Positions 704-39,593 are shown, counted from the first letter of the stretch. The stretch is DNA of 48,051 nucleotides from an uncultured Candidatus Saccharibacteria bacterium (GCA_964496905.1 CAZCAQ010000002.1:70147-118197); one strand, 5' to 3'. Program-made: numbers and translations. The notes: generated from the sequence alone by a model not told the origin.

Positions 704-3100
704 ATGCCCAAAGTTTTTAAACTTAATAAGTCGCAAACCGGTTTTGCGCACCCCGTTTTAGTAGTTGGTCTTGGAATTGCATTTGTTCTAATTGCATTCC
801 TTTTATACAAAGGATTTAAAGAAAGACCTATTGAATCCACTTCATATCAAAATGAGGAGGTTGCAGGACTAAGCACTCCAAATAGCCAAATAGCCTCAAT
901 ACCAAAAGCCGAGTGCGATATTTTTGTGGCAACAAACGGTAACGATGACAACAATGGAAGTACTGAAAACACACCAGTTAGAAAAATACAGACTGCCGCA
1001 AACAGAGTACAAGCAGGGCAAGCAATTTGTATTAAAGGCGGAGAATACAGAGAAGTAGTTCTAATAGCCAATAAAAATGGAACAGCTGGAAATCCAATAA
1101 AAATTGGAGGCTACACAGGAGGTGGTTTACCAATAATTTCGGGAGGCATTACAAATAATGACGAATACACGTTACCAAATTCCAATTGTAAGGTCCTAGA
1201 TGTTTGTCAAGGTAATCCAAACAGTGCCGGCGGTTGTAATCAGCGTAACAGTTGTGTAAGACAAACACTCTTTAATATTATGGATTCGTCAAATTTACAA
1301 GTTTATGGTATCGATGTTAGAGGTTCCTCAGGAAGAGGCTTTGGTGTAGGTAATTCAAATGATATTTCTGTAAAAGGAGTTAGAAGCTATCACAACTGGT
1401 CACAAGGATTCCAAATTTGGTCTGAAACTGCAAACAGCGGAAACAACATTAATATGGATTACACAGCCACATACGACAACATAAGAGCTATGGCTGAAAA
1501 AGGTATTGCAGGCGGAGGGGCTATTCACGTTAACAAAATAAAGAGTGGTTCTATTAAAAATTCTTTAGTATTTGAAAACTTTGGCGAAGGCCTTGATGTA
1601 CACAAAGATTCAGCAGATTTTGAAGTCTCAAAAAGCATGTTCTGGGACAACTATCATGCGTTTTTGTACGCAAATGGCTCAACCGATGCAACACTCGATA
1701 GTAATTTGTTATTCTGCACAAAGAATAGAGTTTCTTGGCTTGAAGAAAATGGTGTAAATCCAGGAAAAACTACGGGATATGGATCAGCAATAACGCTAAG
1801 AAACGAAGAGGCTGTTACTAGGAAACACGGCGAGAATGGTGGCACAATCGCTTCTAACAACTTAATACTTGGATGCACTAATAGCATATTAATTGCAGGA
1901 CAAGGCGTAGCTACTCTGTCAGATGTTAAAGTTCTAAACAACACAATTGTTAGCCCAAGAGACTTTCCTGAAGGTGGGAAATTTGATGGCAAGCAGGGTG
2001 AAGGCATTTCGCTAGCGGGTAAATTAATAAATATACTTATTGAAAACAACGTAATACTTGCTGATTCAACAGGAGAATCTATTAATGGAGCCTCTATGGC
2101 ATCGGATCAAGTAAAGTATGTTAATAACATTGTGTCCACTGCTCCAGCTAGAACAAGAACTGGCGTTAGAGTTGCTGATCCTAAACTAGGCAGAAATGTT
2201 GAAGTTAACGAAGTTCTAAATCCATCCGATATTAGAGTTAATGATTATATGATAACTGCAGGATCTCCTGCAATTGGAGCAGGTGTTAAAACAGCAGGAT
2301 CAAGAGGCACACTAGATACAGACTTTTATGGAAATAGCAGAGGAAATAATCCAATTGACTTAGGCGCGTATGAATTTGGATCTTCCAAAAACTGGAATAA
2401 TTTATATGCAACAGTTATGACTGGGACGGGTAATACTGGAGGCGGTGGCGGCAATGGCGAACCTCCGGTACCTCCTACACCTGCCGACACAGACGGAGAC
2501 GGTATTCCAAACAAACAAGATGAGTGTCCAAGAACACCACAAGGCAATACTCCAGATCCTCAAAAACCAGGATGCCCACTAGACGAGGTTGTAACCGAGC
2601 CAGGAGTAAATAAAGTTAAAAACTCTGCCTTTAAAGATCCTGCAACACCTGGAACAGATGAAGTTGCACAATACTGGACAGTTAATACCGGAAGACTTGG
2701 AAGTGTAACAGCCAGCATTGAACGTGCTAGAAACACAGATTTAGCAAAAGGAGAAACATTATTAATTAATGTAGTCAAAAACCCTATCCAAGGAGCTGTA
2801 TATGTAGGGCAAAGTCCTGTCGACTTAGCACCATCGTCAAAATACGAAGTTAGTTTTGCAGCAAAGTCTTCTGCACTTGATAGCACGTTAATCGTAGATA
2901 TTAGAGAGCTAGGAGCGATTAAAGAGCCATTAGCTCCACGTAAAATAGTCAACTTGGAACAAGGTTGGAAACAGTACACATACACAATTGTGACCAGAAG
3001 ATACAATCCAAATAAAGCTGCAAAGCTTTTTATTAGAGTGGTTACACCAAACGCAAGTAATGTCACGCTAGATAATGTCGTAATTAAAGCTGTTAATTAA
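704..3100 (+). CDS. Membrane-anchored surface protein: right-handed beta-helix (pectate-lyase-fold-like) + TSP3-like Ca-binding linker + C-terminal CBM-like beta-sandwich (paralog A)
   Basis: 798-aa ORF with an N-terminal TM helix (GFAHPVLVVGLGIAFVLIAFLLY). N/G-rich turn repeats (ASNNLILGC, IENNVILADSTG, NNTIVSP) are typical of parallel beta-helices. It also has a DTDGDGIPNKQDECP motif and a C-terminal ~190-aa module starting KNSAFKD..W. Confidence 0.6.
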   Translation: MPKVFKLNKSQTGFAHPVLVVGLGIAFVLIAFLLYKGFKERPIESTSYQNEEVAGLSTPNSQIASIPKAECDIFVATNGNDDNNGSTENTPVRKIQTAANRVQAGQAICIKGGEYREVVLIANKNGTAGNPIKIGGYTGGGLPIISGGITNNDEYTLPNSNCKVLDVCQGNPNSAGGCNQRNSCVRQTLFNIMDSSNLQVYGIDVRGSSGRGFGVGNSNDISVKGVRSYHNWSQGFQIWSETANSGNNINMDYTATYDNIRAMAEKGIAGGGAIHVNKIKSGSIKNSLVFENFGEGLDVHKDSADFEVSKSMFWDNYHAFLYANGSTDATLDSNLLFCTKNRVSWLEENGVNPGKTTGYGSAITLRNEEAVTRKHGENGGTIASNNLILGCTNSILIAGQGVATLSDVKVLNNTIVSPRDFPEGGKFDGKQGEGISLAGKLINILIENNVILADSTGESINGASMASDQVKYVNNIVSTAPARTRTGVRVADPKLGRNVEVNEVLNPSDIRVNDYMITAGSPAIGAGVKTAGSRGTLDTDFYGNSRGNNPIDLGAYEFGSSKNWNNLYATVMTGTGNTGGGGGNGEPPVPPTPADTDGDGIPNKQDECPRTPQGNTPDPQKPGCPLDEVVTEPGVNKVKNSAFKDPATPGTDEVAQYWTVNTGRLGSVTASIERARNTDLAKGETLLINVVKNPIQGAVYVGQSPVDLAPSSKYEVSFAAKSSALDSTLIVDIRELGAIKEPLAPRKIVNLEQGWKQYTYTIVTRRYNPNKAAKLFIRVVTPNASNVTLDNVVIKAVN

Positions 3101-3111
3101 ATAAACAAAAA

Positions 3112-5508
3112 ATGAAAGTCTATGCAAAAGCTAATAAATCAACATCAGTAGGCTTTGCCCATCCAATACTGATGTTGGTGTTAGCTTGCATAGCATTAGT
3201 GGTAACATTTTTTGTCTATAAAGCATATAAGGAACGCCCATATGAATACAGTGAAATTCAAAGTGAAGCTGTAGCTGGGATAAGCACACCAAACAGTCAA
3301 ATTGCTTACATACCAAAGGCCGAGTGTGATTTATATGTTGCGACTAACGGAAACGATTCAAACTCAGGTGATTCTGAAAACTCCCCACTTAAAAAAATTC
3401 AAACTGGTGCAAATAAAGCTCAAGCTGGCCAGGCTGTATGTATAAAAGGCGGAGAGTATAGAGAAGTCGTTGAAATTTACAATAAGCACGGTACACCTCA
3501 AAATCCAATTGTAATAGGTGGGTATGCTGGTGGAGGATTACCAATTGTTTCAGGTGGAATTACAAACGGCGATGAATACATGCTCCCCGACGCTCAATGC
3601 AGAATAAAGGATGTTTGTAATTCTGATGTGCTAGATTCAGGAAAATGCACAAATAGAGATAATTGTATTAGAAGATTCTTATTTAACGTTTTGGAGTCTT
3701 CAAACATTCACATTTATGGCATTGATGTAAGAGGCTCGTCTGGTAGAGGTTTTGGCGTTTCAGAATCCAATGATGTTTATGTTAGAGGGGTAAGAACGTA
3801 CCACAACTGGTCCCAAGGGTTTCAATTTAATGCAGATATGCCTGGTAAGGGAAATAACATGTTTGCCGAATATATTGCCGTTTATGACAACATTAGAGCA
3901 ATGGCAGAGAAAAACTTAATTGGAGGTGGCGCAATCCATGTTAACAAAATTAAAGGTGGCTACATTAGAAATTCCTTAGTTTTTGAAAATTTTGGTGAAG
4001 GCTTAGATGTACATAAAGGAACTACCAATTTTGTAGTTGCAAAAAACATGCTCTGGGACAATTTTCACGCCTCTTTATATGCAAATGGTTCAACCAACGC
4101 TACTCTTGACTCTAATTTATTATTCTGTACTAAAAATAGGGTTAATTGGCTTGAGGAAAACGGGGTTAAGCCGGGTAAAGACACTGGTTACGGATCTGCA
4201 TTAACTTTACGAAATGAGGAAATAGTAACAAGTCAACATGGAGAAGGTGGCGGAACTATTGCATCTAACAATTTACTAGTGGGATGCACTGGAAATATTC
4301 TTATTGCAGCTCAAGGTGACGCCAAACTGGATGATGTGGCAGTTTTTAATAATACAATAGTTAGTCCAAGAGACTTCCCTGCTGTCAAAAATAAATATGA
4401 CGGAAAATCAGGTGAAGGTATCTCAATATCAGGTAAGGCTGGGGCTTTGCAAAACATACATATTGAGAATAATGTAATTCTCGCCGATTCAACAGGTGAT
4501 TCTATTATTGGCGGTGCAATGGGCTCCGATCAAATTACTTATATTAATAATTTAGTTTCAAAACCACCTTTAATTTCAAAAGCAGGCATAAGGGTTGCTG
4601 ATCCAAAAATAAAGAAAAATGTAGGAGAAGATGAGGTTTTGAACCCAGCTCATATAAATGCAGCGGATTATATGATTACAAATGCATCACCTGCTGTTAA
4701 CGCAGGAGCAAAGCCAGCAGTTTCTCGTAACTTGTTGGATCGCGACTTTTTTGGAAACATTAGAGGAAACAATCCAATAGACTTAGGTGCGTATGAAACT
4801 GGCATGACGGCCAACTGGTCCAACTTATATAATGTGATTATGCAAGGTGCCAGCAGTGGCTTAGAAGGCGCTGGCGATGATGAGGATCCTCCAGAACCTG
4901 CCAAAGACCCAGATAAAGATGGTGTACCTAATGATGGTACTGATAAGTGTCCAGAAGTAAATCAAGGAAGTAACCCAGATCCTAGCAAGCCAGGATGTCC
5001 CTTGGAATACGGCGTTAAAGTTAGCAACAAACTTAAAAACTCTTCGTTTGAAGAAGAAGCTTCGCCAGCTACCGATGAACTTGCAAAATATTGGATGTCA
5101 GAAAAAACATTTGCAGGACAGGTACGATACTCCTTAAGAAATGCTAATATTACTGACTTTTCAAGTGGGAACGCAGTACTAATAGAGGTTGTGAAAATAC
5201 CAATTAATCAGCCAAAAATAAGTCAAAGCGATATAATACTTATGCCAAATACTGCTTACAAAGTTAGTTTTTCAGCAAAATCGTCAGGAACAAATAGCAG
5301 AGTGACAATTGAACTTATAGAAATGGGAACTATGCAAAAACTGGTTGCACCTAGGAGATCAGTAAGACTAACTCCCGCTTGGACCAGTTACGACTTTGAT
5401 CTGAGGACAAAGAATTTCGATCCAACCAAAAAAGTTAAGTTGAACGTTAAATTTGCTGCTCCAAAAAACAGCAACATTGTAATAGATAACGTAGAACTTA
5501 AAAAGTAG
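3112..5508 (+). CDS. Membrane-anchored beta-helix surface protein, tandem paralog B
   Basis: 798-aa ORF located 11 nt after paralog A, with the same length and architecture. The first ~600 aa are about two-thirds identical by eye and the C-terminal module is much more divergent. The DPDKDGVPNDGTDKCP motif is present. Confidence 0.6.
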   Translation: MKVYAKANKSTSVGFAHPILMLVLACIALVVTFFVYKAYKERPYEYSEIQSEAVAGISTPNSQIAYIPKAECDLYVATNGNDSNSGDSENSPLKKIQTGANKAQAGQAVCIKGGEYREVVEIYNKHGTPQNPIVIGGYAGGGLPIVSGGITNGDEYMLPDAQCRIKDVCNSDVLDSGKCTNRDNCIRRFLFNVLESSNIHIYGIDVRGSSGRGFGVSESNDVYVRGVRTYHNWSQGFQFNADMPGKGNNMFAEYIAVYDNIRAMAEKNLIGGGAIHVNKIKGGYIRNSLVFENFGEGLDVHKGTTNFVVAKNMLWDNFHASLYANGSTNATLDSNLLFCTKNRVNWLEENGVKPGKDTGYGSALTLRNEEIVTSQHGEGGGTIASNNLLVGCTGNILIAAQGDAKLDDVAVFNNTIVSPRDFPAVKNKYDGKSGEGISISGKAGALQNIHIENNVILADSTGDSIIGGAMGSDQITYINNLVSKPPLISKAGIRVADPKIKKNVGEDEVLNPAHINAADYMITNASPAVNAGAKPAVSRNLLDRDFFGNIRGNNPIDLGAYETGMTANWSNLYNVIMQGASSGLEGAGDDEDPPEPAKDPDKDGVPNDGTDKCPEVNQGSNPDPSKPGCPLEYGVKVSNKLKNSSFEEEASPATDELAKYWMSEKTFAGQVRYSLRNANITDFSSGNAVLIEVVKIPINQPKISQSDIILMPNTAYKVSFSAKSSGTNSRVTIELIEMGTMQKLVAPRRSVRLTPAWTSYDFDLRTKNFDPTKKVKLNVKFAAPKNSNIVIDNVELKK

Positions 5509-15184: not shown

Positions 15185-15213
15185 TCGCTTGTAGCAATGT
15201 CCTCAACAAAAGA

Positions 15214-15337
15214 GCTATGAAACTGCCTGAATCTACGTAATATAGGATAAGATACTGAATAAAATTGAATCTTGATTATCTTTATCGTTCTATAAATACT
15301 TAAGAAATGTCTTCATCAATTGAAGCAGTTTCATAGC
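15214..15337. repeat. 13-bp perfect inverted repeat (GCTATGAAACTGC / GCAGTTTCATAGC) enclosing ~98 nt in the helicase upstream region
   Basis: The arms are at 15214-15226 and 15325-15337, both flanked by T-rich runs. Confidence 0.5.
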
Positions 15338-15398
15338 CTTTTTGATGACAAGGCAGTGTAGCATATACTAGACAGCGATGCAAACTAAGCTGTATGCA

Positions 15399-25891: not shown

Positions 25892-25928
25892 TGAGGAAAC
25901 AGTGGCATACTAACGAACTGCAGAAGAT

Positions 25929-25967
25929 AAAAAGGTGTGCCACCTACAAACAAGGTAAATGGCACAC
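25929..25967 (-). terminator. Intrinsic terminator after the 88-aa GC-rich gene
   Basis: On the minus strand, GTGTGCCA-17 nt-TGGCACAC is followed by CTTTTT. Confidence 0.5.
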
Positions 25968-25981
25968 ATACGAAACCGCGA

Positions 25982-26248
25982 TCAATGGTACTGCACTCTT
26001 GGGGGAAGTTTGCCCAAGCTATGCTTTTCCAATTTGAGCCCAGGCTGGCTTTCAGCACTGAGTACTGCAAGTACCTCCGGAGTTTCAGGTAGTAAACCTG
26101 GGTCAAGGACAATCTCGATAACTTTCACTATCACGTGCTCAACGTCATTATTTCTTGTTAAACGCTCTACCTCGTGAACGCTACCCACATGCCAGTTTAA
26201 GGCTGCGGCAATTGCGTTAGCTTCCTCTTGCCTGGGGTGATCTGCCAT
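25982..26248 (-). CDS. Hypothetical 88-aa protein in a ~50% GC island
   Basis: The ORF has a canonical SD (AGGAGATAAA-ATG), its own promoter and its own terminator. No family recognised. Confidence 0.5.
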   Translation of the reverse strand: MADHPRQEEANAIAAALNWHVGSVHEVERLTRNNDVEHVIVKVIEIVLDPGLLPETPEVLAVLSAESQPGLKLEKHSLGKLPPRVQYH

Positions 26249-26286
26249 TTTATCTCCTTTTCAAATATGCCGCGTTTGATAACCCG

Positions 26287-26314
26287 ATTATAGTGAAAAA
26301 CTATACAAAGTCTA
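26287..26314 (-). promoter_or_regulatory. Promoter TAGACT-16 nt-TATAAT for the 88-aa gene
   Basis: On the minus strand, TAGACT at 26314-26309 and TATAAT at 26292-26287. Confidence 0.5.
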
Positions 26315-26399
26315 GTTTTCGTTGGAGCAGATCTTTTCTTAGAAATTCGCTTAAATGTTGGTCTTCGATTGTCTTAACTACTATTCAAGAAACTCAATT

Positions 26400-26433
26400 A
26401 AAAAAGATCAGTTATGCATAACACAACTGATCT
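26400..26433 (-). terminator. Intrinsic terminator after the zinc-ribbon gene
   Basis: On the minus strand, AGATCAGTT-11 nt-AACTGATCT (9 bp) is followed by TTTTT. Confidence 0.65.
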
Positions 26434-26466
26434 TCTATGTGAGAAGATTCTAAGTCGAAGAAAGTG

Positions 26467-26703
26467 TTACTTTAAACCCAAAAGGCGCTTCCACCAAGGC
26501 GTTGTCTCTTTTGGTAGTTCCTTAATTATTGGAAGCTCCCTCATAAAAGCAAAGTAAGGTTGCTTGAGTTCATTTTCTTGCTCCGGTGTAAGAATCGCCA
26601 CACCTCCGCATTTCGGGTAAGGACAACCAGTGCCCAAAATACCCCCATCCCACAATCGTTTACATTTAGGACATTTAAGCACAGGACCAATCATCTCGTT
26701 CAC
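26467..26703 (-). CDS. Small zinc-ribbon protein
   Basis: CPKCKRLW...CPYPKCGG provides two CxxC-type knuckles. The start is ambiguous (GTG 26703 or ATG 26694). Confidence 0.5.
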   Translation of the reverse strand: MNEMIGPVLKCPKCKRLWDGGILGTGCPYPKCGGVAILTPEQENELKQPYFAFMRELPIIKELPKETTPWWKRLLGLK

Positions 26704-26786
26704 ATCCTTTTACCACAGATTTTGGTTGCAATATGCACCTAAATGGCTTAAGGTTCAAGTAAAGAGGCCTTCGGCAACATAGAACT

Positions 26787-34567: not shown

Positions 34568-35494
34568 TTATCTCTTTAAAACGCTAACCATGTACCTTGC
34601 AATACCATTTTCAACCAACGTAGGCATTAAATAACCAGCAACAGAATTCAAAACAAATTCTTTAGGCAATAGCAAATTCAACAATTTTGCAGTAATAGGC
34701 AAAGCAAAGTAAATCGAGGCCAGCTTCTCAAACCTTTTCATTGTGGGGAGTACATATTTAGACAAATCTTCTTCAAACTCTATACCAAATCCCGTTTCTT
34801 TAGCTTTTTGTACAAAACTTTCATAACTTTCAAAAGCTTGCAAAGCCATAGTTTTCTCGGTTAACTTACATGCCAACTCCTCGTCAGAAGATAAGACTTT
34901 TGAACCTCGGTAGCCATCAAAAACAATAAACAAGCCGACATTATTCAAAACCAAACTAACTTGCTCGAGCACCTTTTCTTTTTCAGTAGAATAACAAAGC
35001 GCCTCTACCACATACACTACATCAAACTTTATATCGTTAAATGTACTTAAGTCATGGTAATCCCCTAGCTCAACTTTTAAATTTCCAAGCTTTTCAGCTT
35101 TTTTTCTAGCGTATTTAATTTGCCCCTCCGACAGTTCCAACCCATAAAACTTTACATCTGGGTTATTTTTTGCCAAGTAGGCAGTGTTCGCACTGCGACC
35201 AGAAGCCAGTTCTAATACATTCTTTGCGCCAATCTTTTTAATATATGCATCAATAAAATGCGCCTGCGCTTTTAAATCCTCGTGCTTGTAAACTCCATCT
35301 CGGCTTATGCCCATATACATAAAATCGTCGTTAGTATGAAAAAGTGAATACGCAATGCTATTTACTTTGTAATAAGTTTGAATATCGGTAAGCTCAATAT
35401 TTTGATTCACTATAGTTTGAGCATCGTAAACAGCTGAAATCTTTTGAAGTTTATTTTTAAGTGAAATGGAGCCACGATTTATTTTAACACGCAA
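34568..35494 (-). CDS. Class I SAM-dependent methyltransferase
   Basis: Motif I is VLELASGRSANTAYLA, followed by an acidic post-I residue (YGLELSE). It lies 2 nt downstream of the 35497-36408 gene, so the two likely form an operon. Confidence 0.7.
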   Translation of the reverse strand: MRVKINRGSISLKNKLQKISAVYDAQTIVNQNIELTDIQTYYKVNSIAYSLFHTNDDFMYMGISRDGVYKHEDLKAQAHFIDAYIKKIGAKNVLELASGRSANTAYLAKNNPDVKFYGLELSEGQIKYARKKAEKLGNLKVELGDYHDLSTFNDIKFDVVYVVEALCYSTEKEKVLEQVSLVLNNVGLFIVFDGYRGSKVLSSDEELACKLTEKTMALQAFESYESFVQKAKETGFGIEFEEDLSKYVLPTMKRFEKLASIYFALPITAKLLNLLLPKEFVLNSVAGYLMPTLVENGIARYMVSVLKR

Positions 35495-35496
35495 AA

Positions 35497-36408
35497 CTAT
35501 TTATACAGGCGCTTTCTACCGTTACCATTTTTTAAATTAGAATACTTTCTAAACTCACAGCCAATGCCTTCCCAATTTTCTGCCGATAACCAAACCTTTT
35601 TGCCGTTAAAAATTAAATAAGGAAAATCTGTTATTTTTGTGCCCACTAAAGCTAAACAAACATTTTCAGGAATTTCCTCAGAATTTAGCTTTTTCATTGT
35701 TGGAATAGATCCCGGCCCAATAGGAAACTCTTTATACAAATCAATGTGATCTGGAAATTGGTAAGCCAAATCAATAAGAACCTCTGTCCAATGAAATTTA
35801 AAGTTTAATCCAAAAACTGGCAAAATTTGGTTTAGGGCATTTACAACACTTAACTTATCAAAACTCTCAATTACTTCTGTAACCTGCTTTATAACCGTGG
35901 GCAAGTAAAAACAAAAAAACTCCTCTCGCGTATGAAAACCTACTTTACTAACCAATGAGATTGGAAAAATATACGCACTGCCATACTTTGGCAATGACAG
36001 ATTCATCAGCTTATCAAACACTTTTTTGTTTTCAGCTTCGTTAAATGTCAAAAGTCCAACTTTTTTATTTGTTGACGGCTTGCATACCATTCTATAAAAC
36101 AATGCGTTTAGTAACCATAAAGCTAGTGACCCTTCAAGCTCTTTTAGCTGTGTGTGAATTTGGATTGTTTGAGCATCCAGCTCTCTATAAACATTGCAAA
36201 ACCTATATCTGGAAAGAATTGGATCTGTTGTGTATGGTGTTGTTGCATTAGTGCTCTTTTTCTCCCAAATGCGCATGCGTTCGATTGTAAAGGATTTCAT
36301 TTGCAAGACTATACTTGCATCGAGACTAAGCGTATTTTCATTATCAAAAACATATGTATGATGATGCCAATGTTTATAGAGCTGTTTTAAGTTTTGTGGT
36401 ATTTCCAT
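35497..36408 (-). CDS. Protein resembling the family linked to phage thymidine hypermodification (aGPT-pyrophosphorylase / 5-hmdU-DNA-kinase-associated helical domain); tentative
   Basis: ERMRIWEKKSTNATTPYTTDPILSRYRFCNVYRELDAQT matches my recollection of the family signature (W/Y-T-x-D-P-I-L-x-x-Y-[RK]-F-x-N-V-[YF]-R-E-x-D). The C-terminus has GCEFRKY. No search was run. Confidence 0.4.
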   Translation of the reverse strand: MEIPQNLKQLYKHWHHHTYVFDNENTLSLDASIVLQMKSFTIERMRIWEKKSTNATTPYTTDPILSRYRFCNVYRELDAQTIQIHTQLKELEGSLALWLLNALFYRMVCKPSTNKKVGLLTFNEAENKKVFDKLMNLSLPKYGSAYIFPISLVSKVGFHTREEFFCFYLPTVIKQVTEVIESFDKLSVVNALNQILPVFGLNFKFHWTEVLIDLAYQFPDHIDLYKEFPIGPGSIPTMKKLNSEEIPENVCLALVGTKITDFPYLIFNGKKVWLSAENWEGIGCEFRKYSNLKNGNGRKRLYK

Positions 36409-36487: not shown

Positions 36488-37132
36488 CTACAACATGGTT
36501 ACAACTTGCCTGGCAAGTTTTAGGGCAGCTCTCGCCTTTTCGAGCGACTCAGCAAGATATTCAGGTGTTCCGTCAGGAAACATGATACCCACATACGCGG
36601 GATTGATCCAAGACATTTGCAACGTGTTGACCCACCTGCCATCTACAAACACATCACAATCGTACTGTCCCGAAACACGATAGCCCATCCGTTCCAGTGC
36701 CTTACGCGAAGCTATGTTTGGTTCACGCACTTGGCTCTGAATTGTGCAAAGATTCAGCTTTACCACATACAGAGTACGTGCCAAATGTGCTAAAGTGCCA
36801 ACACGTCTTCCTCGCCACTCAGGATTGAGAATAAGGATACCCGATGTACATTTGCGACTGATCAAATCAATCTTATGAAGACCAGTTCTGCCAACAGGCC
36901 TATCACAACCATCGGGTACTATAGCCCAGTGAATACCAGTGCTATCTTTTCGGGTTTTTTCCCACCATTCTTCCTCGTCAGCTGTTGTTGGAGCATGCCA
37001 CATGTTCGTGTAACGAACTCCTTCGCCGTTAGCAAGATATTCCGCGAATTCGCCCACTTCCTCTTTTGTGGGAGGACGAAGCGTAATGCCCATACCTTCC
37101 CACTCAACGCGCATACTAAATCCAAATGCCAT
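36488..37132 (-). CDS. GNAT-family N-acetyltransferase (RimJ/RimL-like) in a ~50% GC island
   Basis: ITLRPPTKEEV...NPEWRGRRVGTLAHLARTLYVV..REPNIASRKALERMGY. I prefer ATG 37132, preceded by AAAGGAGAAATATC. The upstream part of the ORF-track frame up to 37303 is leader. Confidence 0.75.
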   Translation of the reverse strand: MAFGFSMRVEWEGMGITLRPPTKEEVGEFAEYLANGEGVRYTNMWHAPTTADEEEWWEKTRKDSTGIHWAIVPDGCDRPVGRTGLHKIDLISRKCTSGILILNPEWRGRRVGTLAHLARTLYVVKLNLCTIQSQVREPNIASRKALERMGYRVSGQYDCDVFVDGRWVNTLQMSWINPAYVGIMFPDGTPEYLAESLEKARAALKLARQVVTML

Positions 37133-37165
37133 GATATTTCTCCTTTCAATGTGCAAACCTTTTTT

Positions 37166-37214
37166 AACCAACAGACACCTTGCCAAACAGCCAGGTGCTT
37201 TGAATTTGTTGGTT
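37166..37214 (-). promoter_or_regulatory. 49-nt stem-loop in the GNAT 5' leader
   Basis: AACCAACA (37214-37207)/TGTTGGTT (37173-37166) with an inner CACCT/AGGTG pairing; it ends ~33 nt before the ATG. Confidence 0.4.
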
Positions 37215-37265
37215 TTAAGAAGACTCCAAGGAGAAAATTGTGCAAATTTGGGTGGAATTATAGAT

Positions 37266-37289
37266 AAAAAAACCTCCGATTGGAGGCTT
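37266..37289 (-). terminator. Intrinsic terminator (AAGCCUCC-AAUC-GGAGGUUU + U-run)
   Basis: The minus-strand hairpin is followed by T7 (plus-strand A-run at 37266-37272). Confidence 0.7.
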
Positions 37290-37316
37290 ATCAAAACTAG
37301 CAAAATAATTGAGGAT

Positions 37317-37427
37317 TTAGACCAGTAGATAAGCCAAATATTTAACTGAACCGACCATGACGGGGTTCTGTATAGCGCAAATAGAGGCGCTAGATGTTAA
37401 ATTGTGGCTTAAACACTGCTTATGCAT
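37317..37427 (-). CDS. Candidate leaderless 36-aa ORF (MHKQCLSHNLTSSASICAIQNPVMVGSVKYLAYLLV) overlapping the structured RNA
   Basis: The ATG lies exactly 6 nt downstream of TATAAT, the same geometry as bona fide genes in this window. Confidence 0.25.
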   Translation of the reverse strand: MHKQCLSHNLTSSASICAIQNPVMVGSVKYLAYLLV

Positions 37428-37433
37428 GAAATT

Positions 37434-37461
37434 ATTATACTATGGGTTTTTGGGTTGTAAA
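37434..37461 (-). promoter_or_regulatory. Promoter TTTACA-16 nt-TATAAT
   Basis: On the minus strand, TTTACA at 37461-37456 and TATAAT at 37439-37434, starting 2 nt after the upstream stop codon. Confidence 0.6.
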
Positions 37462-37463
37462 GA

Positions 37464-38102
37464 CTAATCTATTTGTTCGATAGAAGATAGGATTTTATCT
37501 AGTTCTTGCTCATATCCTTGACCACGCTCGTCAGCAAAACTTTTTAGAATAAATATGCTTTTTTTTGGAAAATCAGGATGTTTCAAGTAAATGCAAGTTT
37601 GCGACACAAGAAACGGGCATTTAAAAGAGTATCCAGACAAATTGCCAAATTTAACTTGTACAATGGCATTTGTGTCTGGTGAAATCTTCTCTGAAATCTC
37701 GGGTCTGTTAAAATCTGCGACAACATCATTATATAGACTTCCCTGTAGATCTAATAAAGATATACGCAATTGCGAAAAATCTCTAGGACCAGGGCCTTCT
37801 TCACTGTGTATACCATGAAATGAAACTGTATAGTTGTAGGCGTCTCCGCTTATGTTATAGGTCTCAGGGACTACAAAGCTAATTCTATTGAGGGTGTCTG
37901 TTATTTGCACAGAACCATCTGAAAGTGTTTGCGTAAAAAGTTTTTTGTCCATATCGGCTTTTATTCGGCTATGCTGCGTCTTAGATACGGGCAACTTTTT
38001 GACCAATTGTGCAGAGCGTACGTAAGTGCCAATTAGTAACAAAATTACAATACAAAGTAAAATTAACAATAGTACAGTAGAAAATCCTAAATTGTTTTTC
38101 AC
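37464..38102 (-). CDS. Hypothetical membrane-anchored extracytoplasmic protein
   Basis: 212-aa ORF with an N-terminal TM helix and a GTG start preceded by a TAATATTAATAT tandem -10-like box. Confidence 0.5.
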   Translation of the reverse strand: MKNNLGFSTVLLLILLCIVILLLIGTYVRSAQLVKKLPVSKTQHSRIKADMDKKLFTQTLSDGSVQITDTLNRISFVVPETYNISGDAYNYTVSFHGIHSEEGPGPRDFSQLRISLLDLQGSLYNDVVADFNRPEISEKISPDTNAIVQVKFGNLSGYSFKCPFLVSQTCIYLKHPDFPKKSIFILKSFADERGQGYEQELDKILSSIEQID

Positions 38103-38169
38103 ATATTAATATTAGCACTATTCAACAAGGGCAAGTTTGAAATAATACGAAAGTTCGCAGAAGAAAGTG

Positions 38170-38197
38170 TTGACATTAGTTTTAAATATTGTATATT
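38170..38197 (+). promoter_or_regulatory. Near-consensus promoter TTGACA-16 nt-TATATT with no ATG downstream
   Basis: TTGACA at 38170-38175 and TATATT at 38192-38197. Confidence 0.6.
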
Positions 38198-38203
38198 TAT
38201 CCA

Positions 38204-38810
38204 TACGCCTCTTGAAAACAGAATAAGCAACCGACAAGCAAAACCCCACAGGTAGCGCGAAATCGTCGAGAACACTAATGCTTCGGCAAAAGAGTGTCTT
38301 GTACTTTAAGTTAAGACAAAGCCCACAAGCCAAAATCTTACACTTCTAGTGTTGCATCTAAAGGAGAATTCAAAGATACGAGAACTTCACGAGTCACATT
38401 GTGAATTATCGCAGGATATACAAGAATCGAAAGACCAAATGTTAATCCTGAAGGAAACGCCCTCAAAAGCTTTCCCGCGTCTGTGAAAAAAAACCTTAAG
38501 CGCCTAGACGAAAGTCAAAGCTTTTCAGCTTTAAAAACTGATCATAAGGATCCCGAAGAATAATGAGCAAGAGAAACGAGTTTGGCCAGAAACGAGAACA
38601 ATATGGACCCAGTCTGAATGCCTTCAAAAGCAATCATTCTCCGTATTTTACTTCCGTTTCTGGCCTTTCCTCTTTTTTACACATAAAGGGACGCGGGAAA
38701 GCAAGCTGTATATACACTAAGTACATAAAACCTACTTCCCCGCTTAAAAAAGGACCCAGTCCTGGTAAATCACTTACGATCCAACCTAAAAATTCCAACT
38801 ATTTGAATGC
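38204..38810 (+). ncRNA. Candidate large (~0.5-0.6 kb) structured ncRNA of unrecognised class; 3' end uncertain
   Basis: The locus is ORF-poor and GC-enriched. It contains 13-bp and 11-bp perfect nested long-range helices, several local hairpins, and UUCG and GAAA tetraloops that only read correctly on the + strand. Confidence 0.5.
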
Positions 38811-38812
38811 AT

Positions 38813-38836
38813 AAAAAATACCGCTAAGGTAGCGGC
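38813..38836 (-). terminator. Intrinsic terminator of the 38943-39593 gene
   Basis: On the minus strand, CCGCTA-CCT-TAGCGG is followed by TATTTTTT. Confidence 0.5.
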
Positions 38837-38942
38837 ATTAATTAACTGCGATTCATGCATGCATCAAGCATACTATAATAGTTGGGCACGATTACTTTAA
38901 GTATTCACTCACAAACGACGTACGTCAAGGGCTTTGTCAAAT

Positions 38943-39593
38943 TTATGGCGAAAACCTTTTAGAAGCAACACCACCATAAGCCTGAAGTGAATTAAAAAAG
39001 GCATAATTTAGGACGCTTCCATATACTTCTTTAAACACATCACTTACTTCACCAAAATTCGTAGTACTTTGCTGCTTTCGTAAAAATTCAAACAACTTTT
39101 CTTTGCCAAAATGATCAACTAGTAATTTAATAGAACTTCCTCCCTCTTGATAAACTTTTTGTCCATCTAAAAATCCATTAAATTCAAGTGTTTCGTTATC
39201 TTCTACTTGTCCTGCCACATAAACAGCTACACCTTCACTGATCCAAGACACACTGCATTCTCCAAATATTTTTTCAAAGAAAATATGACAAAGCTCGTGT
39301 TTAATTAGTTTTTCAATATTTAGAGTTTTTTCTGTGTGAGAGCTCTGCGTTGTAATATTCTTTGGATTTAAAATAAAAATTATATAACTCCCCCAATTCC
39401 AACCCACTGCCCAACTTTCTGTTTCATATCCACTTAGCTGATTGATAGTTTCGCGATCATCCACCACAAATAGCTTTGGAGTTTTTTGATTCCAATTAGT
39501 TTCAAAAAATGTGTTGAGTTCTTTAAGTGCATTTTCAAGATAAGTTTGTAGCTCTGGATTGTTGTATGTGTTTACTTTAAATACTTGGTGCAT
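38943..39593 (-). CDS. Hypothetical protein with HExxH...EG zincin-like motif (peptidase MA-like)
   Basis: IKHELCHIFFEKIFGECSVSWISEGVAVYVAG. Confidence 0.5.
   Translation of the reverse strand: MHQVFKVNTYNNPELQTYLENALKELNTFFETNWNQKTPKLFVVDDRETINQLSGYETESWAVGWNWGSYIIFILNPKNITTQSSHTEKTLNIEKLIKHELCHIFFEKIFGECSVSWISEGVAVYVAGQVEDNETLEFNGFLDGQKVYQEGGSSIKLLVDHFGKEKLFEFLRKQQSTTNFGEVSDVFKEVYGSVLNYAFFNSLQAYGGVASKRFSP

What the first reader, a model, noticed from the sequence alone, without database searches (positions are those of the whole stretch)
38103..38942. ~0.6-kb ORF-poor, GC-enriched, tetraloop-rich locus with its own consensus promoter: candidate large structured ncRNA of unknown class
About 840 bp separate the start of the 37464-38102 gene from the stop of the 38943-39593 gene. 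No frame here holds an ORF longer than 83 aa, in a window that is otherwise ~90% coding. Sampled 60-mers are ~43-48% GC against ~35% in the flanks, the classic signature of structured RNA in AT-rich genomes. A near-consensus promoter (TTGACA 38170-38175, 16 nt, TATATT 38192-38197) fires rightwards. Unlike ~20 other -10 boxes in this window, it has no ATG 5-9 nt downstream. Downstream I can pair the following by hand. A 13-bp perfect long-range helix: GCTTTCCCGCGTC (38469-38481) / GACGCGGGAAAGC (38690-38702). Nested inside it, an 11-bp perfect helix: GGCCAGAAACG (38584-38594) / CGTTTCTGGCC (38655-38665), followed by TTTCCTCTTTTTT. Local pairings: CAGGAT (38412-38417) / ATCCTG (38445-38450); ACACT (38272-38276) .. 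TGC-UUCG-GCA (38279-38288) .. AGTGT (38293-38297); GAC-GAAA-GTC (38507-38516); TTCAC (38386-38390) / GTGAA (38401-38405); AGGAC-CCA-GTCCT (38751-38763). There is also a 10-nt direct repeat, GGACCCAGTC (38605-38614 and 38752-38761). The UUCG and GAAA loops are stable tetraloops only on the + strand, which agrees with the promoter orientation. The next genes converge on this locus, so it is not a 5' leader. By eye I found no RNase P, tmRNA, SRP, 6S or group II domain V signature.
Basis: partly seen in the sequence, partly recalled or inferred. Interest (0 to 1): 0.85.

Follow-up and report, generated by a model that had tools for sequence, protein, structure and literature searches.

The report
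Orphan non-coding locus with nested hairpin
An 840-base gene-free stretch in a candidate-phylum (WWE3) bacterium has a strong promoter and a real 234-base nested hairpin, but no relative was found in any collection, so it remains an unproven lineage-specific RNA gene rather than a demonstrated new class of large structured RNA.

Summary
The statistics support only part of the picture. The nested perfect helices (13 bp around 11 bp) occur in 1 of 3000 shuffles. Positions 38465-38704 are the strongest folding outlier of the whole 48-kb window. The 265 nt between the promoter and that element fold no better than shuffles (z = -0.99). The tetraloop count is at chance level (p about 0.1). GC is only 39-41% against 36.7% for the window. 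Both flanking genes lie on the minus strand, so they do not converge.

The real feature is a near-consensus plus-strand promoter, an A/C-rich weakly folded stretch, and a 234-nt closed element (38469-38702). The inner 95-nt rod of that element is followed directly by U6, like an intrinsic terminator.

Rfam 15, tRNA/tmRNA scans, a six-frame protein search, an HMMER search and phage/plasmid BLAST all gave nothing. Translated-seed scans of the genome, metagenome and viral collections also found nothing. Only clonal copies with an identical region exist, so covariation cannot be tested.

Best reading (about 0.4): a lineage-specific stand-alone non-coding RNA gene. The main rival is a relic of decayed or mobile DNA. 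Interest is modest.

The parts
38109..38117 (-). Extended -10-like box TGcTAATAT, 6 nt upstream of the GTG start (38102) of the orphan 212-aa gene. This looks like the gene's own proximal promoter and makes it leaderless, so the gap is unlikely to be that gene's 5' leader.
   Evidence: Read from the sequence. TAATAT lies 6 nt before the start, as at other gene starts in the window.
38170..38197 (+). Sigma-70-type promoter-like site, TTGACA-16 nt-TATATT (11 of 12). It is divergent from the 212-aa gene's promoter. The inferred start is about 38203-38205, with no start codon 5-9 nt downstream.
   Evidence: one of six 11/12-or-better sites in the window, four of them intergenic.
38204..38468 (+). 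5' segment of the putative transcript. It is A/C-rich and G-poor and is not significantly structured. It contains the small UUCG, TTCAC/GTGAA and CAGGAT/ATCCTG hairpins, and an SD-like AAAGGAG (38360-38366) with no start codon after it.
   Evidence: z = -0.99, 33/200 shuffles as good; 38225-38464: z = -0.7 and -0.9.
38469..38702 (.). 234-nt closed nested-hairpin element, the only strongly non-random structure in the region. The closing helix P1 is 38469-38482/38689-38702 (13 perfect bp plus one U-G). P1b is 38483-38490/38673-38680. A weakly defined branch of about 90 nt lies between them and holds GAC-GAAA-GUC. The inner rod is listed separately.
38578..38672 (+). 95-nt rod hairpin containing the perfect 11-bp helix 38584-38594/38655-38665. 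Predicted free energy is -34.8 kcal/mol and z = -5.67.
38673..38680 (+). UUUUUUAC run directly after the rod. Rod plus U-run gives the geometry of an intrinsic terminator on the plus strand, and the inferred 3' end of a transcript of about 475 nt. In read-through RNA the same U-run pairs with the A-run to form P1b.
   Evidence: Read from the sequence and the fold. The built-in scan did not list it because it only accepts loops of 3-8 nt.
38745..38763 (-). Weak 5-bp hairpin AGGAC-UGG-GUCCU followed by T6 on the minus strand. It is terminator-like but thermodynamically unremarkable.
   Evidence: (z = -0.27).
38817..38839 (-). Intrinsic terminator of the 216-aa gene: a 10-bp stem followed by a T-run on the minus strand. 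The same hairpin is weaker on the plus strand, where it is a possible fallback stop for the plus-strand RNA.
   Evidence: (-13.2 kcal/mol, z = -4.6 on the minus strand; -7.9 kcal/mol on the plus strand). The Trp_leader near-hit is this terminator.

Best explanation
This is a lineage-specific, stand-alone non-coding RNA gene on the plus strand.

Shown:
- A near-consensus sigma-70 promoter (38170-38197) sits back to back with the proximal, leaderless-type promoter of the orphan 212-aa gene.
- The sequence downstream has no credible ORF and no protein relative.
- A 234-nt element (38469-38702) has far more base-pairing than chance gives.
- Its inner 95-nt rod (-34.8 kcal/mol) is followed at once by U6.

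Inferred:
- Transcription starts near 38204.
- Most transcripts end at the rod plus U-run (about 38680), giving an RNA of about 475 nt.
- The G-poor, A/C-rich, weakly folded 5' 265 nt are free to pair with other RNAs or to bind a protein, as in a regulatory or sponge RNA.
- The rod serves as terminator and as protection for the 3' end.
- Read-through transcripts would close the 14+8-bp P1/P1b helix. This produces a compact 234-nt domain whose roughly 22-bp closing duplex could be an RNase III processing site.

The target or partner is unknown.
For: - Promoter: an 11/12 match, one of six in 96 kb of both strands, four of them intergenic. The chance of one falling in this gap is roughly 0.04.
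- The promoter lacks the start codon that leaderless genes here place 5-9 nt after the -10 box.
- The 212-aa gene has its own TGcTAATAT box 6 nt before its start, so the gap is not its leader.
- Two minus-strand terminators (38839-38817 and 38763-38751) lie between the 216-aa gene and the element, and no minus-strand promoter of 9/12 or better lies downstream of them.
- Not coding: no protein hit in six frames and none for the 88-codon frame. No long ORF appears under alternative codes. The 83-aa ORF has a codon score of 0.01, against 0.34 +/- 0.12 for real genes.
- Structure: top folding outlier of the window. z = -6.13 on the plus strand against -3.23 on the minus strand. Nested perfect helices occur in 0.03% of shuffles. 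The rod has z = -5.67 and is followed by U6.
- This is the largest truly gene-free gap in a window that is about 86% coding.
Against: - No homologue was found anywhere, so there is no covariation and no evidence of conservation.
- The only other copies are clonal Logan contigs whose sequence is identical across the region.
- No expression data are available.
- The helices are perfect Watson-Crick with few G-U pairs. They fold on both strands and could equally be a young DNA-level inverted duplication.
- The 3' strand of P1 lies beyond the proposed terminator, which is awkward for a single simple transcript.
- The 5' half has no significant structure.
- An SD-like AAAGGAG without a start codon, and one frame (38405-38560) with a gene-like codon score of 0.33, hint at a decayed gene.
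Confidence: 0.4

Rival explanations
1. Non-functional relic. The gap is what remains of a decayed lineage-specific plus-strand gene or of acquired DNA. The promoter has not yet eroded, and the nested inverted repeats are leftovers of a DNA-level inverted duplication or palindrome rather than a selected RNA fold.
For: - The adjacent 212-aa gene is itself an orphan with no homologue among 5.8 billion proteins, so this is a fast-turnover, lineage-specific patch.
- Synteny around homologues of the 216-aa gene is not conserved.
- AAAGGAG at 38360-38366 has no start codon after it. The frame 38405-38560 has a codon score of 0.33, above the 95th percentile (0.18) of off-frame segments.
- Stop-free pieces tile 38227-38811 with frame shifts.
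- The helices are perfect Watson-Crick, as expected for a young inverted repeat.
- The plus strand has the A>T bias of a coding strand.
Against: - No protein similarity in any frame, even at E <= 10.
- C>G on the plus strand is unlike coding strands in this window.
- The intact 11/12 promoter and the rod-plus-U6 arrangement look maintained.
- Small CPR genomes are thought to carry little junk DNA (general knowledge).
- Decay does not by itself explain two nested perfect helices.
Confidence: 0.28
2. A DNA-level palindromic element: a MITE-like or other mobile or recombination-related insertion of about 234 bp bounded by the 13-bp terminal inverted repeat GCTTTCCCGCGTC. It would be unrelated to the upstream promoter.
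For: - A perfect 13-bp terminal inverted repeat 208 bp apart, with a size typical of MITEs.
- Folding is equally strong on both strands in the window scan.
- In sample SRR22401994 the assembly breaks inside the element, at 38449 and 38655.
Against: - No second copy in the 48-kb window and none in the viral, genome or metagenome scans.
- No target-site duplication beyond 'AA' (read from the sequence).
- No transposase, integrase or reverse transcriptase in the window.
- The two arms are very unequal: 101 nt against 24 nt between P1 and the rod.
- The assembly breaks do not coincide with the element's ends, and three other samples assemble straight through it.
Confidence: 0.12
3. Minus-strand function. 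The element would be part of a terminator or insulator stack, or a long regulatory leader, acting on read-through from the 216-aa gene towards the 212-aa gene.
For: - Both flanking genes are on the minus strand.
- Two minus-strand terminator-like hairpins precede the element.
- On the minus strand the GC-rich P1 stem is followed by UUUU.
- The minus-strand minimum free energy is lower in absolute terms, -79.2 kcal/mol.
Against: - The minus-strand z-score is much weaker once composition is taken into account: -3.23 against -6.13.
- The strong terminator at 38839-38817 should already stop transcription.
- The 212-aa gene has its own promoter box 6 nt before its start.
- A 234-nt hairpin followed by only four U is not a canonical terminator.
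Confidence: 0.08
4. The promoter drives a leadered mRNA for a small orphan protein, for example the 83-aa ORF 38563-38814 or the 23-aa ORF 38278-38349.
For: An ATG-initiated 83-codon ORF exists downstream of the promoter. Small orphan proteins are common, and homology searches miss them.
Against: - Codon score of 0.01, like off-frame sequence.
- No SD sequence before the ATG.
- The ORF runs through the most stable hairpin of the window and across the U-run.
- No match among 1.84 billion representative proteins or 5.8 billion proteins.
- The predicted peptide is basic and rich in S, P and K, with low complexity.
Confidence: 0.06

Closest known systems
Stand-alone bacterial regulatory or sponge RNAs of several hundred nt with their own sigma-70 promoter and an intrinsic terminator (for example CrcZ or CsrB-type RNAs; from general knowledge)
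   Same: An independent promoter, no ORF, a length of about 0.5 kb, an A-rich weakly structured body, and a stable 3' hairpin followed by a U-run.
   Different: GGA motifs are not enriched by rough count and no regular repeated binding motif was found. No partner protein is known, and the presence of Hfq or CsrA in this organism was not tested. There is no homologue and no expression evidence. The terminator hairpin, at 95 nt, is far longer than usual.
Retron msr-msd non-coding RNA
   Same: The topology of the 234-nt element on the plus strand matches. A terminal inverted repeat of 13-14 bp (like a1/a2) encloses a stretch with short hairpins (like msr), followed by one long hairpin (like msd). 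The size falls in the 170-250 nt range, and a G follows directly after the closing helix.
   Different: No reverse transcriptase gene lies downstream or anywhere within about 14 kb (and Pfam tables). No retron or defence profile hits the neighbours. The resemblance is in shape only.
6S RNA (Rfam RF00013 and relatives)
   Same: A closed architecture in which the 5' and 3' ends pair in a long helix, an overall rod shape, and a size of about 200 nt.
   Different: No Rfam match, even at E <= 10 with lax filters. Instead of a symmetric central bubble there is a one-sided branch of about 90 nt. The promoter lies 270 nt upstream of the element.
MITEs and other palindromic repeat elements
   Same: A perfect 13-bp terminal inverted repeat, a length of about 234 bp, and folding on either strand.
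   Different: It appears as a single copy in everything searched. It has no target-site duplication, no cognate transposase, and strongly asymmetric arms.
Large structured bacterial RNAs (OLE, ROOL, GOLLD, HEARO/omega RNA, raiA) and RNase P, tmRNA, SRP and group I/II introns
   Different: None reaches the Rfam gathering score in the window and none appears at E <= 10 in 38000-39000. ARAGORN finds no tmRNA. Only 234 nt are significantly structured.
TIGR arrays (tandem interspaced guide RNA arrays of CPR bacteria and phages; PMC12045711)
   Same: A non-coding RNA locus type reported from Patescibacteria.
   Different: TIGR loci are tandem repeat or stem-loop arrays next to a Nop-domain Tas protein (PMC12045711). 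Here there is no tandem repeat at any period and no such protein among the neighbours.

Membership tests
Any Rfam 15 family (including RNase P, tmRNA, SRP, 6S, OLE, ROOL, GOLLD, HEARO, raiA, group I/II introns, riboswitches) | A covariance-model score at or above the family's gathering threshold. | tested here: not met
   No match at gathering score in the whole window. At E <= 10 in 38000-39000 there are only sub-threshold chance hits. The best is Trp_leader, 23.5 bits against a threshold of 41, and it is simply the terminator at 38817-38839.
tmRNA / tRNA | A tRNA-like domain, and for tmRNA a tag-peptide reading frame. | tested here: not met
   ARAGORN finds no gene in the window.
Retron ncRNA (msr-msd) | Terminal inverted repeats enclosing a part with short hairpins followed by one long hairpin. 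| tested here: met
   The order is P1 (14 bp), a branch of about 90 nt with short hairpins, the 95-nt rod, then the 3' strand of P1. This is a match in topology only.
Retron ncRNA (msr-msd) | A reverse transcriptase gene adjacent, normally directly downstream on the same strand. | tested here: not met
   No RVT-type Pfam hit in any scanned ORF of the window or in the precomputed Pfam tables of the locus. The nearest plus-strand gene downstream is more than 6 kb away.
MITE / mobile palindromic element | Multiple dispersed copies. | tested here: inconclusive
   No second copy in the 48-kb window or in the collections. However, the rest of this genome is not available, and those collections do not contain this organism.
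MITE / mobile palindromic element | Terminal inverted repeats flanked by a target-site duplication. | tested here: not met
   The inverted repeat is present. The flanks ...TCAAAA| and |AAGCTG share only 'AA'.
Conserved structured ncRNA (in the generic sense used for new-class claims) | Homologues in other genomes with compensatory base changes in the helices. | not testable with these tools
   No homologue was retrievable. All other copies are identical across the region. The protein clusters of both flanking genes have a single member each.
Stand-alone sRNA/ncRNA gene | Its own promoter, no translated ORF, and an intrinsic terminator on the same strand. | tested here: inconclusive
   A promoter-like site at 11/12, no credible ORF, and a rod followed by U6. 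All of these are sequence predictions, and transcription has not been shown.
Decayed protein gene | Translated similarity to a known protein family. | tested here: not met
   The concatenated six-frame translation has no hit at E <= 10 among 5.8 billion proteins, though a word prefilter limits sensitivity. The 88-codon frame has no hit among 1.84 billion representatives. A decayed orphan gene cannot be excluded.
TIGR array | A tandem array of repeat/spacer or stem-loop units next to a Nop-domain Tas gene. | tested here: not met
   No tandem repeats and no Nop-domain neighbour. Defining features are taken from PMC12045711.

The most novel reading that the evidence does not exclude
The 234-nt closed element (38469-38702) is the core of a new structured RNA restricted to a sparsely sampled WWE3 (Patescibacteria) lineage. 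It would be made from its own promoter and trimmed at the roughly 22-bp P1/P1b duplex, and it would act in an unknown ribonucleoprotein. Its retron-like layout, without a reverse transcriptase, would make it a type of RNA not yet described.
Probability: 0.12. Interest if true: 0.6.

Novelty: new member of a known kind. Interest (0 to 1): 0.3.

Why it matters
CPR/Patescibacteria have tiny, densely packed genomes and very few described non-coding RNAs beyond the universal ones. A dedicated promoter driving a 0.5-kb non-coding transcript with an unusually stable domain would point to lineage-specific RNA-based regulation in organisms that cannot yet be grown alone. As the evidence stands, the locus occurs in one clonal lineage and cannot be tested by comparison. 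Its present value is as a flagged candidate for transcriptome data, not as a discovery.

Tried and rejected
1. Rfam at gathering score on the whole window, and at E <= 10 on 38000-39000: nothing usable.
2. tRNA/tmRNA scan: none.
3. Synteny route. Homologues of the 216-aa gene (at most 59% identity, WWE3/Patescibacteria) were fetched from ten loci. Their neighbourhoods differ, nhmmer finds no match, and the gaps next to them are not unusually folded.
4. The 212-aa neighbour has no homologue at all, so it gave no route to related loci.
5. Exact-protein look-ups of four window genes returned only clonal Logan contigs. These have 1-3 SNPs in 12-14 kb, none in the region.
6. Translated-frame seeds of the element were scanned against genome contigs (twice), metagenome contigs (twice) and viral contigs (twice). 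An exact P1...P1' DNA pattern was also scanned against viral contigs. There were no relatives and not even a self hit, so the source organism is not in those collections. These seeds need eight matching residues and so detect only close relatives.
7. blastn against the phage and plasmid collections: no match.
8. 'blastx' substitutes: a six-frame concatenate and HMMER on the 88-codon frame were both empty.
9. Alternative genetic codes: no hidden ORF.
10. Replication origin: one DnaA-box-like site, below chance expectation for the window, and no skew switch. Rejected.
11. Retron: no reverse transcriptase. TIGR array: no tandem repeats. Defence island: no PADLOC system.
12. The AAAGCTTT palindrome pair and the GGACCCAGTC repeat are not significant.
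13. The first sliding-window z-score run timed out. It was repeated with smaller settings.

Full report
**Setting**

The window is a piece of ordinary chromosome from a candidate division WWE3 (Patescibacteria/CPR) bacterium. The best named relatives of the neighbouring 216-aa protein are WWE3 and Patescibacteria proteins at no more than 59% identity. Genes in the window include GreA, BipA, a DEAD-box helicase, MscL, YkuD, NUDIX enzymes and thioredoxin/DsbD proteins. I found no transposase, integrase or reverse transcriptase. Many genes look leaderless: 16 of 52 starts have a TANNNT box 5-9 nt upstream.

The gap 38103-38942 lies between two minus-strand genes. One is a Peptidase_MA-like 216-aa gene (38943-39593). 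The other is a 212-aa membrane-anchored orphan (37464-38102) with no homologue among 5.8 billion proteins. The only other large gap in the window (25892-26786) contains small minus-strand genes. That makes this the largest truly gene-free stretch in a window that is about 86% coding.

**Checking the observation**

Three features are more than chance.

- **Promoter.** TTGACA-16-TATATT at 38170-38197 is an 11/12 match. Only six such sites exist on both strands of the window, and four of them are intergenic. It stands back to back with a TGcTAATAT box 6 nt before the GTG of the 212-aa gene. This is a normal divergent-promoter arrangement. It also means the gap is not that gene's leader.
- **Nested helices.** A perfect inverted repeat of 13 bp or more appears in 0.5% of 3000 dinucleotide shuffles of the region. 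A nested pair of 11-bp repeats appears in 0.03%.
- **Folding energy.** Among 398 sliding 240-nt windows, 38465-38704 is the most extreme on both strands (z about -6.7 and -7.0 with 12 shuffles). With 200 shuffles, z = -6.13 on the plus strand and -3.23 on the minus strand.

Other parts of the description do not hold.

- The 265 nt between the promoter and the element fold like random sequence: z = -0.99, with 33 of 200 shuffles as good.
- The UUCG and GAAA tetraloop hairpins number two against 0.54 expected (p = 0.10). The minus strand has its own GAAA loop on a 6-bp stem.
- GC is 38.6-41% against 36.7% for the window, and the neighbouring GNAT gene is richer, at 45-48%.
- A 10-nt direct repeat is about what chance gives.

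**Anatomy of the real feature**

- P1 is 38469-38482/38689-38702: 13 perfect pairs plus one U-G.
- P1b is 38483-38490/38673-38680. It pairs an A-run with a U-run across an 8-nt bulge.
- A poorly defined 5'-side branch of about 90 nt follows. It includes GAC-GAAA-GUC.
- A 95-nt rod spans 38578-38672 (-34.8 kcal/mol, z = -5.67) and contains the perfect 11-bp helix.
- On the plus strand the rod is followed at once by UUUUUU, which is the geometry of an intrinsic terminator with an unusually long hairpin.
- Further downstream, both on the minus strand, lie a weak hairpin plus T6 (38763-38751) and the good terminator of the 216-aa gene (38839-38817).
- The helices contain few G-U pairs (5 of 74), so base pairing itself does not identify the functional strand.

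**Is it a known RNA, or a dead gene?**

- Rfam 15 gives no hit at gathering score in the window, and only chance-level hits at E <= 10 in the region.
- ARAGORN finds nothing.
- There are no tandem repeats, which excludes the TIGR arrays described from CPR bacteria (PMC12045711).
- A concatenate of all six-frame stop-free pieces has no match at E <= 10 among 5.8 billion proteins.
- The longest frame has no HMMER match among 1.84 billion representatives.
- Reassigning any single stop codon opens no long ORF.
- The 83-aa ORF has a codon score of 0.01, against 0.34 +/- 0.12 for real genes.
- Two weak hints of an old plus-strand gene remain. One is an SD-like AAAGGAG at 38360-38366 with no start codon after it. 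The other is a frame (38405-38560) with a gene-like codon score of 0.33.

**Search for relatives**

This was the decisive test, and it could not be completed.

- Exact-protein look-ups recover only clonal contigs from at least four sequencing runs. They carry 1-3 SNPs per 12-14 kb, none in the region.
- The 90%-identity clusters of both flanking proteins have a single member each.
- Ten loci that carry homologues of the 216-aa gene show no synteny, no nhmmer match, and no unusually folded neighbouring gap.
- Translated-seed scans covering 38405-38811 found nothing in the genome, metagenome or viral collections, not even the source itself.
- blastn against the phage and plasmid collections was empty.
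- These seeds detect only fairly close relatives. The result therefore means 'none detectable here', not 'none exists'.

**Interpretation**

I think the most likely reading (about 0.4) is a lineage-specific stand-alone non-coding RNA gene. In this reading the promoter fires at about 38204. Most transcripts end at the rod plus U-run at about 38680. The G-poor, A/C-rich 5' part is left accessible for pairing or protein binding. Read-through RNA would close P1/P1b into a compact 234-nt domain.

Shown: the promoter-like site, the lack of coding signal, the non-random fold, and the rod-U6 geometry. Inferred: transcription, the transcript ends, and any function.

The rivals are:

- a relic of a decayed orphan gene or acquired DNA, with a young inverted duplication (0.28);
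- a MITE-like or other DNA-level palindromic element (0.12);
- a minus-strand insulator or leader role (0.08);
- a small orphan protein (0.06).

On the plus strand, the element has the same layout as a retron msr-msd RNA: terminal repeats, short hairpins, then one long hairpin. No reverse transcriptase lies within about 14 kb, so it is not a retron.

**Verdict**

The interpretation as a roughly 0.6-kb tetraloop-rich structured RNA of a new class is only partly supported. What exists is a probable promoter plus a real 234-nt nested hairpin in an orphan locus. Without relatives or expression data it cannot be raised above 'candidate'. Interest is modest (0.3). If conserved homologues with covariation or a discrete transcript were found, it would deserve about 0.6.

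Noticed in passing
window 37265-37461 (minus strand): A second compact unit. The promoter-like site TTTACA-16-TATAAT (37461-37434) has an ATG 6 nt after the -10 box, giving a leaderless 36-aa ORF (37317-37427). About 130 nt of well-folded sequence follow, then a clean terminator CCUCC-AAUC-GGAGG+U7 (about 37290-37265). The 240-nt z-score is -5.6 and the 351-nt z-score is -3.9. There is no Rfam hit at E <= 1. It could be a small protein gene or a small RNA.
   Followed up: partly
window 36488-37303: The GNAT acetyltransferase gene is 45-48% GC, against 36.7% for the window, which may indicate horizontal acquisition. Its 271-aa TTG-start ORF is probably over-extended. An AAGGAG-led ATG at 37132 fits the 214-aa gene call made on Logan contig L001.
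   Followed up: partly
whole window: Leaderless gene starts are common. 16 of 52 starts have a TANNNT box 5-9 nt upstream, often TATAAT at 6 nt. Only four or five starts have a clear Shine-Dalgarno motif.
   Followed up: partly
window 34568-36408: A protein with the 5-hmdU DNA kinase helical domain (PF18723, E = 4.6e-19) sits next to a SAM-dependent methyltransferase in a CPR chromosome. This kinase family is otherwise linked to phage DNA hypermodification (from general knowledge).
   Followed up: no
window 25892-26786: This apparent 895-nt gap holds two plausible small minus-strand genes: 25982-26248 (88 aa) and 26467-26703 (78 aa, with two CxxC pairs, zinc-ribbon-like).
   Followed up: partly
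window 38449 / 38655 and 33548: In sample SRR22401994 the contigs stop at 38449 and resume at 38655, inside the hairpin element, while three other samples assemble through it. All longer Logan contigs of this clone end at the same base, 33548. The cause is unknown; low coverage or a graph branch are possibilities.
   Followed up: partly
window 15185-15398: This intergenic gap has a 30-nt, 83%-complementary inverted repeat (15203-15232/15319-15348). Its folding z-scores are -4.6 and -3.8, the next strongest intergenic fold after the finding and the 37265-37461 unit.
   Followed up: no
window 704-5508: Two adjacent ORFs of exactly 798 aa each (704-3100 and 3112-5508). They have only weak matches to a thrombospondin-type repeat, a beta-helix and a carbohydrate-binding domain. 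They are probably tandem surface proteins. Whether they are paralogues was not tested.
   Followed up: no
window 38360-38366 and 38405-38560 (plus strand): An SD-like AAAGGAG has no start codon within 12 nt. A start-less 52-codon frame has a gene-like codon score of 0.33. Together these are a weak hint that part of the gap is a decayed plus-strand gene.
   Followed up: partly
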